Origin: Nanobdellota archaeon
Lineage (GTDB): Archaea > Nanobdellota > Nanobdellia > Woesearchaeales > JAHWHD01
Direction of reading: 5' to 3'
Length of the DNA: 12,157 bases
NCBI GenBank assembly: GCA_034722435.1
Contig: JAYENX010000025.1
Span: 28,931-41,087 of the forward strand
This document shows positions 5,163 to 10,663 of the stretch, one piece after another (position 1 is the stretch's first letter; each line of letters begins with the position of its first letter). The notes under the pieces were generated by a model. The model had not been told where the DNA came from and made no database searches. It was given only the letters and a program-made list of their open reading frames with translations. Both the position numbers and the translations under genes were made by a program.

Positions 5163-5197
5163 TTTATTTTTTCTTTTATAAAATCAAGCACAACCTT

Positions 5198-5205
5198 TTT
5201 AAATA
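5198..5205 (+). promoter_or_regulatory. TATA box of the tRNA gene
   Basis: TTTAAATA ending 23 nt upstream of the tRNA 5' end at 5228. Confidence 0.7.
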
Positions 5206-5227
5206 CCTATTTCTCCTTAATAATCAC

Positions 5228-5377
5228 GGCGGTGTAACTCAGCCTGGTTAGAGTGCCACGCTCATATTGTTGAGCGATGAGGCGTAAGCCAATGATTATC
5301 CTTCAACCGGGATACGTGGATCTGGGTCTGGAAGAAGCCTAGCACGATTGTCGCGAGTCCAAATCTCGCCACCGCCA
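5228..5377 (+). tRNA. tRNA-Met(CAT), probably elongator, with two introns: exons 5228-5266, 5314-5320, 5349-5377; introns 5267-5313 (47 nt, 37/38) and 5321-5348 (28 nt, 44/45)
   Basis: Acceptor GGCGGTG/CACCGCC plus A73; D stem ACTC/GAGT; anticodon stem CCACG/CGTGG with loop CTCATAA; T arm GCGAG-TCCAAAT-CTCGC; the spliced product is a standard 75-nt cloverleaf with G15-C48, G26-A44 and G46; no A1-U72 or triple G-C initiator signature; CCA not encoded. Confidence 0.9.
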
Positions 5378-5415
5378 TTTTTCTTCCATTTTTTATATTT
5401 TTCTTGATGTTTTTG
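5378..5415 (+). terminator. Oligo-T tract(s) after the tRNA, candidate archaeal terminator
   Basis: TTTTT...TTTTTT...TTTTT runs directly follow the discriminator base, between convergent genes. Confidence 0.5.
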
Positions 5416-5436
5416 ATTAAAGAAACAAGTTTTTCA

Positions 5437-6088: not shown

Positions 6089-6640
6089 TTAGAACTCCTC
6101 CCTTTCTTTCAAATGTTTCACTAACGCGTCACTTATCAAAGGTTTACCATCTACAAGTATATACTTAAAATCAAATATAACAGACTCGCCATCTGCAAGC
6201 AGAATTTCTATTCCTTCTTGAAACTTAAGATCTTGCATTTTTTTACCGTCAACAAGTTGTTTAGCAACATATACAGCATTATCGGTTGCCATTTGTTCTT
6301 TACCAAGACTTCTTCTCTCGCCTGGCAACTGCAGTTCTTCCTCAGTTCTTCTTCGTGGCGGGTTATCTCCCAAGATTCCGCCGAATATTAAATATTCAAA
6401 CTTATCATCGCTGTTTAACTCTTTAGAAGCGAACGGGTCAAGAACGCACGTATTGTTAAAATTTATATCCTTAACACTTTGCACTCTACAATCTGCATAA
6501 TCTTCTAACTTGTCAAGGTCTTCTTCTTTAAGATTAGTAATGATTAGTTTATTCTTACCAACAATCTTAGAAATGTGTTTGTACTCTACTAGACACCACT
6601 CAAATAACTCAGGTTCAAGGTGCTCTATCACGTACTTCAT
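6089..6640 (-). CDS. SPOUT-class SAM-dependent methyltransferase, Sfm1/DUF431 (COG2428) family
   Basis: YVIEHLEP...W...EY, VLDP, FGGILGD.PPR.RT and LG..QM.TDNAV motifs typical of Sfm1-like proteins. Confidence 0.88.
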   Translation of the reverse strand: MKYVIEHLEPELFEWCLVEYKHISKIVGKNKLIITNLKEEDLDKLEDYADCRVQSVKDINFNNTCVLDPFASKELNSDDKFEYLIFGGILGDNPPRRRTEEELQLPGERRSLGKEQMATDNAVYVAKQLVDGKKMQDLKFQEGIEILLADGESVIFDFKYILVDGKPLISDALVKHLKEREEF

Positions 6641-6995: not shown

Positions 6996-7418
6996 ATGAC
7001 TTATAAATATCTTGAACACACTGCAGATGTTAAGTTCCGCGCATACGGCGATACATTAGAGGAAGCTTTCATAAATGCAGCATACGCATACCAAGACGTT
7101 GTTAGCGACCATACTAAGATAAAACCTAACATAACAAAAACTATTAATATTAAATCTGAAGACGACAAATCTCTTCTTTACGATTTCATTGAAGAGTTCA
7201 TTGTACTTCTTGATACTGATACTTTCTTGTTAGCAGAAATCAAATCCATAAAGATAACTAAAACAGATAACAAACATCAATTAACTGCGGAAATAGTCGG
7301 AGATAACAAACCCGAACAATACGAAATCTTAACACACGCTAAAGCAATGACGTATCAAGAGATGAAGATAGAAGAAACAGATGAAGGGTTTATGGTTCAG
7401 GTTGTAATAGATCTTTAG
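6996..7418 (+). CDS. Archease (RtcB activator)
   Basis: YKYLEHTADV N-terminal motif, G.TLEEAF.NAA, KAMTY and C-terminal V.IDL. Confidence 0.95.
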   Translation: MTYKYLEHTADVKFRAYGDTLEEAFINAAYAYQDVVSDHTKIKPNITKTINIKSEDDKSLLYDFIEEFIVLLDTDTFLLAEIKSIKITKTDNKHQLTAEIVGDNKPEQYEILTHAKAMTYQEMKIEETDEGFMVQVVIDL

Positions 7419-7878: not shown

Positions 7879-7909
7879 TTTTGCATGGAATTAACAATTG
7901 GTGATGCTC

Positions 7910-9349
7910 ATGTATAAAGAAGTAGAAAAAATAACTCCAAACAAAATTACAGAATTCATGTACGAAATACCTAAAGAGGGTGGTATGAATGTTCCTTGTA
8001 GAATTTTTGCAAGTGAACCACTTTTATCATTAATGCAAAAAGATAGAACTTTGATGCAGGGTAAAGAGATGGCATATCTTCCAGGTATATACAAATATTC
8101 AATTATAATGCCTGACGGTCACCAAGGTTACGGTTTCCCGATTGGCGGTGTTGCTGCTCTGGACACAAAAACTGGCGGCATCTCTCCGGGAGGTATTGGT
8201 TACGATATTAATTGCGGAGTAAGATTACTAAGAACAAACATCAAATATGAAGAAGCTAAAGAAAAAGTCAAAGAACTTCTTGATAAGTTATTAGAATACT
8301 GTCCCGCAGGTATAGGTTCTTCTAACATAAGAATTACGGATGAAGAACTTAACAAACTTCTTAACAATGGCGCTAAATGGGCAGTTGATAACGGTTACGG
8401 TGACGAAGACGATCTTAAACATTGCGAAGAATCTGGTTGTATGTCACAGGCAGACGCATCTGCAGTTTCAGATAAAGCAAAAAAACGTGGTAGAAAACAA
8501 ATTGCAACTTTAGGATCTGGTAACCATTTCCTTGAAATACAATATGTTGACGAGATTTATGACGAAGAGACTGCAAAAGCTTTTGGTCTGGAAAAAGGTA
8601 ATGTAGTTTTCATGATACATTGCGGTTCCAGAGGACTAGGTCACCAGGTTTGCTCAGATTATTTGAGAGATATGGAACGTACATTCCCTGAGATAGTGAA
8701 AACACTCCCTGATAGAGAACTTATCTATGCACCTGCAGGACATGAGTTATGCGATAAATATTTGAAAGCTATGGCAGCTGCTGCAAACTTTGCATGGACA
8801 AACCGTCATGTATTAGGTCACCAGACAAGAACTGCTATCAAAGAATTTTTCCCTGACGCAGAAGTTAAAACTGTTTACGATGTTGCACATAACATTGCTA
8901 AAGTTGAAACTCACATGATTGATGGCGAAGAAACTGAAGTTTATGTACACAGAAAAGGGGCGACAAGAGCATTCGGCCCTGGAAGAAAAGAAATTCCTGA
9001 AGCTTACAGAGAGATTGGTCAACCAATCATTTTACCTGGTTCAATGGGTACCTGTTCATACGTTCTTGTAGGAACTAATGAAGGCATGGAACTTACATTC
9101 GGTTCAACTGCACATGGCGCTGGCAGAGTAATGTCACGTCATGCAGCTTTGAAAGAATTTAAAGGCGAACAAGTTGTTAAGGATATGGCAGCTCAAGGTA
9201 TCACTGTTAAAGGTGTTTCTATGAAAGGTGTCGCTGAAGAAGCAGCAGGAGCATATAAAGATGTTGATGAAGTTGTTAAAGTCTCAGACGCTGCAGGTAT
9301 CGGCAGGAAAGTTGTAAAACTAAAACCTCTTGGTGTGATTAAGGGTTAA
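7910..9349 (+). CDS. rtcB: RNA-splicing/repair ligase RtcB (archaeal type)
   Basis: MPDGHQGYGFPIGG, YDINCGVR, LGSGNHFLE, HCGSRG, YDVAHN, HRKGAT, PGSMG and STAHGAGR motifs; start set at ATG 7910 from the SD. Confidence 0.97.
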   Translation: MYKEVEKITPNKITEFMYEIPKEGGMNVPCRIFASEPLLSLMQKDRTLMQGKEMAYLPGIYKYSIIMPDGHQGYGFPIGGVAALDTKTGGISPGGIGYDINCGVRLLRTNIKYEEAKEKVKELLDKLLEYCPAGIGSSNIRITDEELNKLLNNGAKWAVDNGYGDEDDLKHCEESGCMSQADASAVSDKAKKRGRKQIATLGSGNHFLEIQYVDEIYDEETAKAFGLEKGNVVFMIHCGSRGLGHQVCSDYLRDMERTFPEIVKTLPDRELIYAPAGHELCDKYLKAMAAAANFAWTNRHVLGHQTRTAIKEFFPDAEVKTVYDVAHNIAKVETHMIDGEETEVYVHRKGATRAFGPGRKEIPEAYREIGQPIILPGSMGTCSYVLVGTNEGMELTFGSTAHGAGRVMSRHAALKEFKGEQVVKDMAAQGITVKGVSMKGVAEEAAGAYKDVDEVVKVSDAAGIGRKVVKLKPLGVIKG

Positions 9350-10174: not shown

Positions 10175-10663
10175 TTATTTCAACTTTTGTAATTCTTTCT
10201 TAAATAATTTCATTTCTGATTCAGTTAATCTTAAGTTTTTAAACTTTTTTCCTTTCTTAGGTATATCTGGAGGGTTCCCCCAATCTTTATCAGTCTTAAA
10301 CCTTGGATAAATGTTCCAGTGTATGTGCGGATCCCAGTTATCCAGGTATTCCATGTTAAGCCTGTCAAATTTTATAGCTTTATGCAAAGCTCGGCAAACC
10401 TTGATAGCATCATTAAAAAACGAGTTCAACGTTTTTCTGTGCAACAACATAAGATGTTCTTCATGAGCTCTTGTCGCAATCACCAGATGCCCTTTATGAT
10501 GCGCCCTTCCCATTACAACTATGATGTGCGCATTCTCAAAAAGTATATCTTCTTTCTTAATGTGCAGTTTACAAAATTTACACTTAGGATGTTTATCAGG
10601 ATGTTGATGTTCATGCTTAACAAACTTCTTCAAAAACTCTTTATGACGCTTAGAATGTCTCAT
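10175..10663 (-). CDS. HIT family protein, His-rich, non-canonical HxHxN motif
   Basis: CKFC, KGHLVI...H, DPHIHWNIYPR; ATGA overlap with the upstream paralogue. Confidence 0.88.
   Translation of the reverse strand: MRHSKRHKEFLKKFVKHEHQHPDKHPKCKFCKLHIKKEDILFENAHIIVVMGRAHHKGHLVIATRAHEEHLMLLHRKTLNSFFNDAIKVCRALHKAIKFDRLNMEYLDNWDPHIHWNIYPRFKTDKDWGNPPDIPKKGKKFKNLRLTESEMKLFKKELQKLK

What the first reader, a model, noticed from the sequence alone, without database searches (positions are those of the whole stretch)
5228..5377. Two-intron tRNA-Met with a 7-nt micro-exon, including a non-canonical 44/45 intron
Besides the canonical 37/38 intron, 33 nt lie between the anticodon and T arms, too long for a normal variable arm. 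They fold as a bulge-helix motif: central helix CGTG(5315-18)/CACG(5343-46), bulges GA^T (5319-21) and AT^T (5347-49), and intron helix CTGGGT/GCCTAG abutting both. Cutting after the second bulge base removes 5321-5348 and leaves a 5-nt variable loop ATGTC with G46 and C48. The middle exon is only ACGTGGA. Multi-intron and non-canonical introns are established in Thermoproteales and ARMAN archaea, which have broad-specificity endonucleases. In a Woesearchaeota-like genome this would imply such an EndA, and standard scanners could mis-call the gene.
Basis: partly seen in the sequence, partly recalled or inferred. Interest (0 to 1): 0.75.

Follow-up and report, generated by a model that had tools for sequence, protein, structure and literature searches.

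The report
Two-intron methionine tRNA gene
This is the only elongator methionine tRNA gene found in a tiny Woesearchaeota-type archaeon, cut into three pieces (the middle one 7 bases) by two protein-spliced introns, one in the variable loop; it is a well-supported new example of a known archaeal habit, not a new kind of element.

Summary
Window 5228-5377 (+) is a tRNA(CAU) gene (Rfam tRNA, 42.4 bits) with a 47-nt insert at 37/38 and a 28-nt insert (5321-5348) in the variable region. Removing both gives a 75-nt cloverleaf with variable loop ATGTC and a 7-nt middle exon.

The second insert has one boundary pair that gives a 4-bp central helix, a 3-nt bulge and a 6-bp inner helix. It has no outer helix, so it is a relaxed HBh'-type motif.

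A same-size, same-site insert sits in the orthologous gene of five other genomes, from five other families of the order. All six inner-helix pairs change on both sides. Most orthologues, including the same-genus one, have an uninterrupted variable loop identical to the predicted junction.

The genome holds an initiator tRNA and a tRNA-Ile(UAU). I found no TiaS domain and no second copy of this gene, so it is probably the sole elongator tRNA-Met.

EndA, RtcB and archease are present. EndA is a single plain alpha4-like protein, not one of the known broad-specificity forms.

Intron 1 carries a K-turn guide aimed at C34. This scan has found that design before in other genomes, and Nanoarchaeum is a published precedent.

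Verdict: a real feature, and a new member of a known kind.

The parts
5198..5205 (+). TATA-box-like TTTAAATA, centred about 26 nt upstream of the first tRNA base
   Evidence: Read directly from the sequence. The position fits the usual archaeal TATA spacing, which is established knowledge. Its function is inferred, not tested.
5228..5377 (+). Whole elongator tRNA-Met(CAU) gene, 150 nt: three exons and two introns
   Evidence: Rfam RF00005 scores 42.4 bits over model positions 1-71. The spliced 75-nt product folds as a cloverleaf at -30.4 kcal/mol.
5228..5266 (+). Exon 1, positions 1-37: acceptor 5' strand, D arm, anticodon stem 5' strand CCACG, and loop CTCATA with anticodon CAT at 5263-5265
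5267..5313 (+). Intron 1, 47 nt, canonical 37/38 site. Its BHB is relaxed: the central helix is C32-G5311, U33-G5310, C34-G5309, with A35 opposite C5308 unpaired. The inner helix is 5269-5274 with 5302-5307.
   Evidence: Orthologues usually have a perfect CTCA/TGAG central helix.
5271..5298 (+). K-turn guide module inside intron 1: antisense TGAGCG (5271-5276, complementary to C30-A35), D-like box ATGA (5277-5280), hairpin GGC-GTAA-GCC (5281-5290), C-like box AATGATTA (5291-5298). G5272, the fifth base upstream of the box, pairs with C34.
   Evidence: The same layout is in 28 of 29 orthologues. The hairpin stems differ while staying complementary. N31 against guide position -2 reads G:C 18 times and A:T 10 times, with no exceptions.
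5314..5320 (+). Exon 2, the 7-nt micro-exon ACGTGGA (positions 38-44), carrying the whole 3' strand of the anticodon stem
5321..5348 (+). Intron 2, 28 nt, at 44/45 in the variable loop. Central helix 5315-5318 with 5343-5346; 5' bulge 5319-5321; inner helix 5322-5327 with 5337-5342; loop 5328-5336; unclosed 3' 'bulge' 5347-5349.
   Evidence: One boundary pair fits the motif and there is no outer helix. Covariation in homologues. The helix-bulge-helix is present in the MFE fold.
5349..5377 (+). Exon 3, positions 45-73: TGTC of the variable loop, T arm GCGAG-TCCAAAT-CTCGC (C55 in place of U55), acceptor 3' strand, discriminator A73
5378..5382 (+). Run of five T directly after A73, an archaeal oligo-T terminator-like signal. 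No CCA is encoded.
   Evidence: Read from the sequence. The flank TTTTTCTTCCA is shared with the orthologues of G001, G135 and G374.
6996..7418 (+). Archease gene. Archease is the known activator of RtcB. It is context for the locus, not part of the tRNA gene.
   Evidence: Pfam PF01951, E 3.3e-36.
7898..9349 (+). RtcB tRNA-splicing ligase gene, the enzyme expected to join the three exons. It is context for the locus.
   Evidence: Pfam PF01139, E about 1e-169.

Best explanation
Window 5228-5377 is the functional, and probably the only, elongator tRNA-Met(CAU) gene of this Woesearchaeota-type (DPANN) genome.

Its transcript carries two introns of the archaeal protein-spliced kind.
- Intron 1 (47 nt, position 37/38) is a K-turn guide intron whose antisense stretch places C34 at the methylation position.
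- Intron 2 (28 nt, position 44/45) is a relaxed HBh'-type intron. Its 3' end (CACG) pairs with bases 39-42 of the anticodon stem to form the 4-bp central helix.

Inferred mechanism: EndA cuts after the second base of each 3-nt bulge, and RtcB with archease joins the exons. Intron 2 needs bases 39-42, while intron 1 needs those same bases in the anticodon stem as its outer helix. The two cleavage motifs therefore cannot exist together, so splicing must go in two rounds with a refolding step between them. The 7-nt exon would then never be free at both ends.

Shown here: the gene, both motifs, the comparative support, and the presence of the enzymes. Inferred: that cleavage happens at these sites, the order of splicing, and the methylation of C34.
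For: Gene and motif:
1. The Rfam tRNA model hits end to end, with two insertions at exactly these places.
2. There is a single boundary pair with a 4-bp central helix, a 3-nt bulge and a 6-bp inner helix. Only 160 of 200,000 shuffles reach this. The MFE fold of the precursor contains it.

Comparative support:
3. Intron-less alleles exist. The orthologues in G001 (same genus), G002 (same family), G038 (L032) and G007 (L035) have an uninterrupted ATGTC loop. About 20 other genomes have AAGTC or AGGTC.
4. A homologous 28-nt insert sits at the same site in G034, G047 and G135, and in the unpublished G374 and G122. In the alignment of five carriers, 86% of cells pair, against 24-40% when the partner columns are slid. 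All 6 inner-helix pairs change on both sides.

The gene is needed:
5. The other CAT tRNA (C2:21944-22018) has A1:U72 and GGG/CCC in the anticodon stem, so it is an initiator.
6. A tRNA-Ile(UAU) is present and there is no TiaS_FLD hit.
7. There is no second copy of the exons.

Machinery and function:
8. EndA, RtcB and archease are present.
9. The intron-1 guide is in 28 of 29 orthologues, with perfect covariation between N31 and guide position -2. Fibrillarin, Nop5 and L7Ae are present. Cm34 of archaeal elongator tRNA-Met is made by box C/D RNPs (PMC6601510). [quoted passage not shown]
10. If the insert were kept, the predicted pairing probability of the anticodon stem falls from 0.61 to 0.05.
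Against: - There are no RNA data, so no junction has been observed.
- The 3' splice site of intron 2 is not closed by an outer helix, in this genome or in any of the four homologues scored.
- Intron 1 also has a mismatch in its central helix.
- The only EndA found is a plain alpha4-like protein. Published work describes that class as strict for BHB motifs (PMC5829648, PMC3241643).
- The T-loop reads C55 where U55 is almost universal. The orthologues read U at that position, apart from two miscalled T arms.
- The genome is 94.5% complete, so a second tRNA-Met, a TiaS gene or an EndA beta subunit could lie in the missing part.
- My search for hidden CAT tRNAs would miss genes with introns upstream of the anticodon.
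Confidence: 0.85

Rival explanations
1. The 28 nt are not removed. The mature tRNA-Met keeps them as a long, class-II-like variable arm, with the CTGGGT/GCCTAG hairpin as the arm.
For: The hairpin alone would make a plausible arm stem of 6 bp. The Rfam model tolerates the insert as an insertion. There are no RNA data to exclude it.
Against: - Ten unpaired bases would follow the hairpin before the T stem, unlike class II arms.
- The last bases, CACG, copy the 5' strand of the anticodon stem. They lower the predicted pairing probability of that stem from 0.61 to 0.05.
- Orthologues in the same genus and family, and in more than 20 other genomes, have a 5-nt loop identical to the predicted junction.
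- The central helix and bulge geometry are conserved in the homologues scored, with a register shift in G047 that still gives a 28-nt excision. A simple arm would not need that.
Confidence: 0.04
2. The locus is a decaying or silent tRNA-Met copy. The working elongator tRNA-Met lies in the unassembled part of the genome, or is hidden by introns that my scans cannot see.
For: - C55 in the T-loop is unusual; the orthologues read U55.
- Both cleavage motifs are relaxed.
- The genome is 94.5% complete in 60 contigs.
- ARAGORN with introns allowed finds only 13 tRNAs, so many genes are cryptic.
Against: - All four stems are intact, and both introns keep their helices.
- A TATA-like box and an oligo-T tail are in place.
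- No second copy of either long exon exists in the assembly.
- The guide module of intron 1 is intact.
- The orthologue is single-copy in its relatives, and the 3' flank is shared with G135 and G374.
Confidence: 0.07
3. The 28-nt element is removed, but not by the standard EndA reaction at the predicted sites. For example, a helper protein or a different nuclease could be needed, because the resident EndA is of the strict class.
For: - Only a plain alpha4-like EndA was found. No beta subunit appears by phmmer or Pfam.
- Its alignment to M. jannaschii EndA shows no gaps.
- Strict EndAs did not cut BHL motifs in vitro (PMC3241643).
Against: - The geometry is exactly that of an EndA substrate: a 4-bp helix and 3-nt bulges, with cuts after the second bulge base giving a perfect tRNA.
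- Earlier notes of this scan, which I did not check, list many other non-canonical introns of the same shape in this genome, so one general enzyme is the simpler reading.
- Kaneta et al. conclude that subunit type contributes least to substrate range (PMC5829648).
Confidence: 0.04

Closest known systems
Multiple-intron tRNA genes with non-canonical BHB / HBh' / BHL introns of Thermoproteales and other Crenarchaeota (Marck & Grosjean 2003; Sugahara 2007, 2008; summarised in PMC4033280, PMC8450103, PMC3241643)
   Same: - Protein-spliced introns occur at sites other than 37/38, including the variable region (PMC3241643).
- A gene can carry several introns.
- Neighbouring introns can have motifs that form only one after the other (PMC8450103).
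- Relaxed motifs lacking one helix are known.
   Different: - The lineage is different: a Woesearchaeota-type DPANN order.
- The resident EndA has no CSL-type loop and no beta subunit.
- The 44/45 intron is a small homologous family restricted, as far as I searched, to the tRNA-Met gene of six families of this order.
Disrupted tRNA genes of DPANN archaea with alpha4-type EndA (Kaneta et al. 2018, PMC5829648)
   Same: DPANN genomes show marked tRNA gene disruption, incomplete tRNA sets from standard predictors, and a short homotetramer-type EndA.
   Different: Kaneta et al. link the disruption to an L3 insert in EndA. Here EndA aligns to M. jannaschii EndA without visible gaps and lacks the inserts seen in N. 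equitans alpha between the catalytic Tyr and His. I could not confirm from the paper's text that this insert is L3.
C/D-box-like stable RNA in the 66-nt intron of Nanoarchaeum equitans elongator tRNA-Met (Randau 2012, PMC3491384), and the box C/D guide in the euryarchaeal pre-tRNA-Trp intron (Clouet d'Orval 2001)
   Same: Intron 1 holds C- and D-like boxes forming a K-turn, inside the canonical intron of elongator tRNA-Met. In tRNA-Trp, such an intron guides Cm34 of its own tRNA.
   Different: - Here the intron is only 47 nt, with one K-turn and one 6-nt antisense stretch (a half-size, permuted layout).
- The target C34 follows from the N+5 rule and from covariation, not from experiment.
- This scan has reported the same design in more than 20 other genomes.
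Class II tRNA long variable arm (tRNA-Leu, tRNA-Ser)
   Same: There is extra sequence with a hairpin between the anticodon and T arms.
   Different: - The tRNA is a methionine tRNA.
- Ten unpaired bases would follow the hairpin.
- The insert is absent from the closest relatives.
- The insert competes with the anticodon stem.

Membership tests
Archaeal EndA-spliced tRNA intron, strict hBHBh' motif | 4-bp central helix flanked by two 3-nt bulges on opposite strands | tested here: met
   Central helix CGTG 5315-5318 with CACG 5343-5346. Three bases (5319-5321) follow on the 5' strand and three (5347-5349) on the 3' strand.
Archaeal EndA-spliced tRNA intron, strict hBHBh' motif | Outer helix h closing the second bulge | tested here: not met
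   Outer-helix pairs number 0 in G000 and in the four homologues scored. The strict motif is therefore not met. The locus is filed under the relaxed HBh'/BHL class.
Archaeal EndA-spliced tRNA intron, relaxed HBh' / BHL class | Central helix H, one well-formed bulge and an intron helix h' directly abutting. Cuts after the second bulge base restore a canonical tRNA. | tested here: met
   H is 4 of 4 pairs and h' is 6 contiguous pairs. Only one boundary pair fits, and the product is a 75-nt cloverleaf with a 5-nt variable loop.
Archaeal EndA-spliced tRNA intron, relaxed HBh' / BHL class | Presence/absence polymorphism: orthologues without the insert carry the predicted exon junction | tested here: met
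   G001, G002, G038 (L032) and G007 (L035) read ATGTC uninterrupted. About 20 more read AAGTC or AGGTC. G001 and G002 are unpublished genomes; the others suffice for the claim.
Archaeal EndA-spliced tRNA intron, relaxed HBh' / BHL class | Helices supported by compensatory changes in homologues | tested here: met
   In five genomes, all 6 h' pairs change on both sides. 86% of cells pair, against 24-40% in the slid controls.
Archaeal EndA-spliced tRNA intron, relaxed HBh' / BHL class | Splicing endonuclease and RtcB ligase encoded in the genome | tested here: met
   EndA at C58:50304-50834, with PF01974 and PF02778. RtcB and archease lie in the window itself.
Archaeal EndA-spliced tRNA intron, relaxed HBh' / BHL class | Actual excision at the predicted sites | not testable with these tools
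   No transcript data are on hand.
Broad-specificity EndA types ((alpha-beta)2, epsilon2, or alpha4 with a specificity loop) | A beta subunit, a three-unit fusion, or an inserted loop (CSL/L1, ASL/L2, L3) | tested here: not met
   There is one 176-aa gene. phmmer and Pfam find no paralogue at E below 0.03. The alignment to M. jannaschii 1A79 shows no gaps, and two gaps (2 and 4 residues) appear against N. equitans alpha between the catalytic Tyr and His. Limits: the genome is 94.5% complete, and the identity of that insert with L3 was not confirmed.
Elongator tRNA-Met | CAU anticodon, A73, and none of the initiator marks (A1:U72; G29-G31 with C39-C41) | tested here: met
   This gene has G1:C72 and the anticodon stem CCACG/CGTGG. 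The initiator marks are found instead on C2:21944-22018.
Elongator tRNA-Met | Not tRNA-Ile2(CAU) | tested here: met
   A tRNA-Ile(UAU) gene lies at C56:49928-50065, and there is no TiaS_FLD hit in the genome. The cis guide points at C34, which is Cm34 in archaeal elongator tRNA-Met (PMC6601510). Absence of TiaS is limited by the 94.5% completeness.
Box C/D-type K-turn guide in a tRNA intron (N. equitans tRNA-Met, euryarchaeal tRNA-Trp) | C- and D-like boxes able to form tandem G-A pairs next to a canonical stem | tested here: met
   ATGA, hairpin, AATGATTA at 5277-5298. 28 of 29 orthologues keep the boxes, and their hairpin stems differ in sequence while staying complementary (read from the listed sequences, not formally counted).
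Box C/D-type K-turn guide in a tRNA intron (N. equitans tRNA-Met, euryarchaeal tRNA-Trp) | An antisense element that places the target at the fifth pair upstream of box D | tested here: met
   G5272 pairs with C34. The spacing is invariant in 28 orthologues. N31 against guide position -2 reads G:C 18 times and A:T 10 times, with no exceptions.
Box C/D-type K-turn guide in a tRNA intron (N. equitans tRNA-Met, euryarchaeal tRNA-Trp) | A second (C'/D') motif and a guide of about 10-12 nt, as in standard archaeal sRNAs | tested here: not met
   There is only one K-turn and 6 antisense bases, so this is a half-size guide. It works like a C/D guide but is not a standard two-motif sRNA.
Box C/D-type K-turn guide in a tRNA intron (N. 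equitans tRNA-Met, euryarchaeal tRNA-Trp) | L7Ae, Nop5 and fibrillarin present; Cm34 actually made | tested here: inconclusive
   All three proteins are encoded. The methylation itself cannot be tested here.
Class II tRNA with long variable arm | An arm hairpin with only 1-2 unpaired bases before the T stem, kept in orthologues | tested here: not met
   Ten unpaired bases follow the hairpin. The insert is absent from most orthologues.

The most novel reading that the evidence does not exclude
The two introns may cooperate. The 3' end of intron 2 copies the 5' strand of the anticodon stem and captures bases 39-42. That frees C30-A35 to pair with the K-turn guide of intron 1, so that C34 is methylated first. 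Only after intron 2 is removed can the anticodon stem form and present intron 1 for cutting. This would be a built-in order of modification and splicing.

For: the MFE fold of the precursor shows both duplexes at once.

Against: most orthologues have the guide without intron 2, and G122 appears to have intron 2 without the K-turn. Any BHB intron at 44/45 must pair with bases 39-42 by geometry alone.
Probability: 0.07. Interest if true: 0.6.

Novelty: new member of a known kind. Interest (0 to 1): 0.3.

Why it matters
Practical value:
- The locus shows why tRNA sets of DPANN genomes look incomplete. The only elongator tRNA-Met gene found here is invisible to ARAGORN.
- It gives a clean, compact test substrate. 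The 150-nt precursor holds two relaxed introns whose cleavage motifs exclude each other, and a 7-nt exon.

Biological value:
- It adds a variable-loop (44/45) intron family, conserved in length and shape across six families of one order.
- It sharpens an open question already raised in the literature: how a plain alpha4-like EndA with no known specificity loop handles motifs that lack the outer helix.

It does not reveal a new kind of element.

Tried and rejected
- ARAGORN with default settings and with introns allowed does not find the gene. This is a limit of the scanner, not evidence against the gene.
- The genome search with RF00005 on the whole genome lists only 10-20 tRNAs and omits this one, so it could not serve as an inventory.
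- My first regex scan for CAT tRNAs was too loose to read. The stricter version found only this gene. A looser stem-loop scan gave no further credible tRNA.
- A candidate EndA beta subunit at C22 is an M23-peptidase-like protein by its sequence. One at C30 looks like a PUA-type protein. Both were rejected by reading the sequences.
- The pattern ACGTRGA..CACGWWWGTC across 400 genomes is not enriched over its reversed control: 7 matches (4 forward, 3 reverse), including G000, against 14 control matches. Three of the seven are unrelated: one T-loop intron of another tRNA and two coding regions. The other four, including G000, are tRNA-Met genes.
- No Rfam family other than tRNA matches 5180-5420, even at E up to 10.
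- The sigma-70 promoter and intrinsic-terminator scan is not informative for an archaeon.
- No copy of intron 2 exists elsewhere in the genome (best match 13 nt), so there is no sign of recent intron mobility within this genome.
- An outer helix for intron 2 was looked for, before and after removal of intron 1, and none was found.
- PMC92551 and PMC1852824 are not held, so the published list of intron positions could not be read directly.

Full report
**What is there**

Window 5228-5377 (+) matches the Rfam tRNA model from end to end (42.4 bits against a cut-off of 29). The match has two insertions: 48 nt after model position 37 and 29 nt in the variable region. Read by hand, the gene divides as follows:

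- Exon 1: 5228-5266, positions 1-37, anticodon CAT at 5263-5265.
- Intron 1: 5267-5313, 47 nt, at 37/38.
- Exon 2: 5314-5320, ACGTGGA, positions 38-44.
- Intron 2: 5321-5348, 28 nt, at 44/45.
- Exon 3: 5349-5377, positions 45-73.

The spliced 75-nt sequence folds as a cloverleaf at -30.4 kcal/mol.

ARAGORN finds nothing in the window. With introns allowed it finds 13 tRNAs in the whole 1.3-Mb, 94.5%-complete genome, and not this one.

**Is intron 2 a real cleavage motif?**

I scanned all boundaries near the site. Exactly one pair gives a 4-bp central helix directly followed by a 3-nt bulge and an inner helix of at least 4 bp. That pair is 5321 and 5348. It has a central helix of 4 of 4 pairs, an inner helix of 6 pairs, and no outer helix.

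Only 160 of 200,000 shuffles of the 28 nt do as well at a boundary that leaves a 5-nt variable loop. The unconstrained MFE fold of the 150-nt precursor (-57.8 kcal/mol) contains this helix-bulge-helix.

The topology is that of the canonical intron. The exon bases just upstream of the 5' bulge pair with the intron bases just upstream of the 3' bulge. What is missing is the outer helix, so this is a relaxed HBh'/BHL-type motif and not a strict hBHBh'.

**Comparative evidence**

A DNA search of 60 relatives found the orthologous gene in about 40 genomes. I parsed 29 of them with a splice-aware aligner.

- Most have only the 37/38 intron. One (G013) has none.
- All read a plain 5-nt variable loop. 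ATGTC, identical to the predicted junction, is found in G001 (same genus), G002 (same family), G038 (L032) and G007 (L035). The others read AAGTC or AGGTC.
- A 28-nt insert at the same site, with the same architecture, occurs in G034 and G047, G135 and G374 and G122.

With G000 that makes six genomes in six GTDB families of one order. A covariance model built on five of them finds the element in 5 of 151 genomes sampled from the order.

In each of the five scored (G000, G034, G047, G135, G374) there is again exactly one fitting boundary pair and a 28-nt excision. G047 uses a register shifted by one base (ACGT/ACGT, cut at 43/44) yet gives the same kind of product.

On the five-sequence alignment, 86% of cells pair, against 24-40% when the partners are slid by 1-3 columns. 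All six inner-helix pairs change on both sides. The unpaired cells come from the shifted G047 row.

G122 has one mismatch in the central helix.

G001, G002, G374 and G122 are unpublished genomes. None of the claims depends on them alone. Published genomes supply both intron-less alleles (for example G011, G013, G018, G038) and carriers (G034, G047, G135).

**Which tRNA is it, and is it needed?**

- The only other CAT tRNA I found (C2:21944-22018, minus strand) has A1:U72 and GGG/CCC in the anticodon stem, the archaeal initiator marks.
I found that gene at C56:49928-50065, and no TiaS domain in the genome. A tRNA-Ile2(CAU) is therefore not expected.
- blastn-short with the exons and the spliced sequence finds no second copy.
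- A TATA-like TTTAAATA is centred about 26 nt upstream, and five T follow A73.

The locus is therefore most likely the sole elongator tRNA-Met gene. Two caveats remain: 5% of the genome is missing, and my scans would miss a CAT tRNA with introns upstream of the anticodon.

**Long variable arm as the rival reading**

If the 28 nt stayed in the tRNA, ten unpaired bases would separate the hairpin from the T stem. The CACG at its end would also compete with bases 28-31 for bases 39-42. The predicted pairing probability of the anticodon stem is 0.05 with the insert kept and 0.61 after removal. Together with the intron-less orthologues, this makes retention unlikely, though only RNA data can exclude it.

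**Intron 1**

Its cleavage motif is also relaxed here. The central helix is C32-G, U33-G, C34-G plus an A35-C mismatch, and the inner helix is offset by one base. Most orthologues have a perfect CTCA/TGAG helix.

Inside the intron lies a module kept in 28 of 29 orthologues:

- antisense TGAG plus 2 nt;
- a D-like box (ATGA in 24, CTGA in 2);
- a short hairpin whose stem varies while staying complementary (for example GGC/GCC, TCC/GGA, GAC/GTC, GCC/GGC);
- a C-like box (RATGAT.. or GCTGATGA).

The boxes can form the tandem G-A pairs of a K-turn, with the hairpin as the canonical stem.

The antisense pairs with C30-A35 here, and across orthologues with N31 to A35. The fifth base upstream of the box always faces C34. 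The base facing N31 is C when N31 is G (18 genomes) and T when N31 is A (10 genomes), with no exception. Related genomes are not independent, so this counts events only loosely.

Fibrillarin, Nop5 and L7Ae are all encoded. Cm34 of archaeal elongator tRNA-Met is made by box C/D RNPs (PMC6601510). Pyrococcus uses a separate sRNA for it, whereas the tRNA-Trp intron guides its own tRNA (PMC7994747). The 66-nt intron of N. equitans elongator tRNA-Met is a stable C/D-like RNA (PMC3491384).

I worked this out from the sequences before looking it up. This scan has already reported the same design in more than 20 other genomes, so it is not new here. It does support the identity of the tRNA.

**Mechanism and order of splicing (inferred)**

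An intron at 44/45 must use bases 39-42 for its central helix. Intron 1 needs the same bases in the anticodon stem as its outer helix. The two motifs therefore cannot exist together, and cutting must proceed in two rounds with refolding between them. Such cases are described for closely spaced introns in PMC8450103.

In the MFE fold, the intron-2 helix and the guide:C28-A35 duplex form together. That would fit methylation and removal of intron 2 coming first, but the order is not shown. With ligation between the rounds, the 7-nt exon is never free at both ends.

**The enzymes**

RtcB (window 7898-9349) and archease (6996-7418) lie 1.6-2.5 kb downstream of the tRNA gene.

The only EndA is a 176-aa protein at C58:50304-50834, with both Pfam domains.

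- Its best structural relatives are N. equitans alpha (3IEY_A, E 7e-36) and M. jannaschii alpha4 (1A79, E 8e-32).
- The alignment to M. jannaschii EndA shows no gaps, and the Tyr, His and Lys of the catalytic triad align.
- Compared with N. equitans alpha, two inserts (2 and 4 residues) between the Tyr and His are missing.
- Neither Pfam at E up to 10 nor phmmer finds a paralogue. The two weak candidates are unrelated proteins.

By sequence, however, the enzyme is not of the (alpha-beta)2 or epsilon2 types and has no room for a specificity loop. Kaneta et al. already noted alpha4-type EndAs in DPANN genomes with many disrupted tRNA genes, there linked to an L3 loop (PMC5829648). Earlier notes of this scan report the same mismatch in other Woesearchaeota genomes.

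**Comparison with what is known, and verdict**

Non-canonical and multiple tRNA introns, including ones in the variable region, are established in archaea (PMC3241643; PMC4033280). DPANN genomes are known to be rich in disrupted tRNA genes (PMC5829648). Earlier first-reader notes of this scan list many two- and three-intron tRNAs in this genome, which I did not check.

What this locus adds:
- a small family of homologous 28-nt variable-loop introns in the tRNA-Met gene of one order;
- a clear case of two mutually exclusive relaxed motifs around a 7-nt exon;
- one more genome in which only a plain EndA is found.

It is a new member of a known kind, of modest interest.

The unexplained detail is C55 in the T-loop (5359). 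The orthologues read U there, apart from two miscalled T arms.

Noticed in passing
window 5358-5364 (T-loop TCCAAAT; C55 at 5359): The T-loop has C at position 55, where U (pseudouridine 55) is almost universal. The orthologues read U55, apart from two miscalled T arms. It could be a real change in a working tRNA, a polymorphism or an assembly error.
   Followed up: partly
window 5271-5298: Intron 1 carries a half-size K-turn (C/D-like) guide whose fifth base upstream of the D-like box pairs with C34. It is kept in 28 of 29 orthologues with perfect N31 covariation. This scan found the same design before in more than 20 other genomes, and N. equitans is a published precedent (PMC3491384).
   Followed up: yes
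window 6996-7418 and 7898-9349: Archease and RtcB, the tRNA ligase and its activator, lie 1.6-2.5 kb downstream of the two-intron tRNA gene, separated by a small HTH gene on the other strand.
   Followed up: partly
L026 / L044 (G034:C10, about 10196-10420): The orthologous tRNA-Met gene of G034 has four inserts (30/31: 24 nt; 37/38: 53 nt; 44/45: 28 nt; 59/60: 40 nt). That would give two adjacent 7-nt exons, and is one intron more than the 'up to three' quoted in PMC8450103. G135 and G374 have three introns (30/31, 37/38, 44/45). The scan has seen four-intron tRNAs elsewhere.
   Followed up: partly
G000:C58:50304-50834 (L041:1474-2004, minus strand): The only EndA found is a 176-aa alpha4-like protein with no insert relative to M. 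jannaschii EndA, and no beta paralogue was found. Earlier first-reader notes, which I did not check, list many non-canonical introns in this genome.
   Followed up: partly
G000:C56:49928-50065 (minus strand): A tRNA-Ile with anticodon UAU carries introns at 37/38 and in the T-loop, and there is no TiaS domain in the genome. AUA is therefore probably read as in Nanoarchaeum.
   Followed up: partly
G000:C2:21944-22018 (minus strand): The initiator tRNA has the anticodon loop CCCATAA, with C33 in place of the usual U33.
   Followed up: no
L013, L016, L014, L019 (G001, G002, G018, G015): Relatives that lack the 44/45 intron often carry a T-loop (59/60) intron of 16-100 nt in the same gene, while G000 has none. 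Intron sites in this one gene turn over quickly within the order.
   Followed up: no
window 6089-6640 (minus strand): An SFM1-like SPOUT methyltransferase gene (PF04252, E 2.8e-48) lies close to the tRNA gene. Its substrate is unknown.
   Followed up: no
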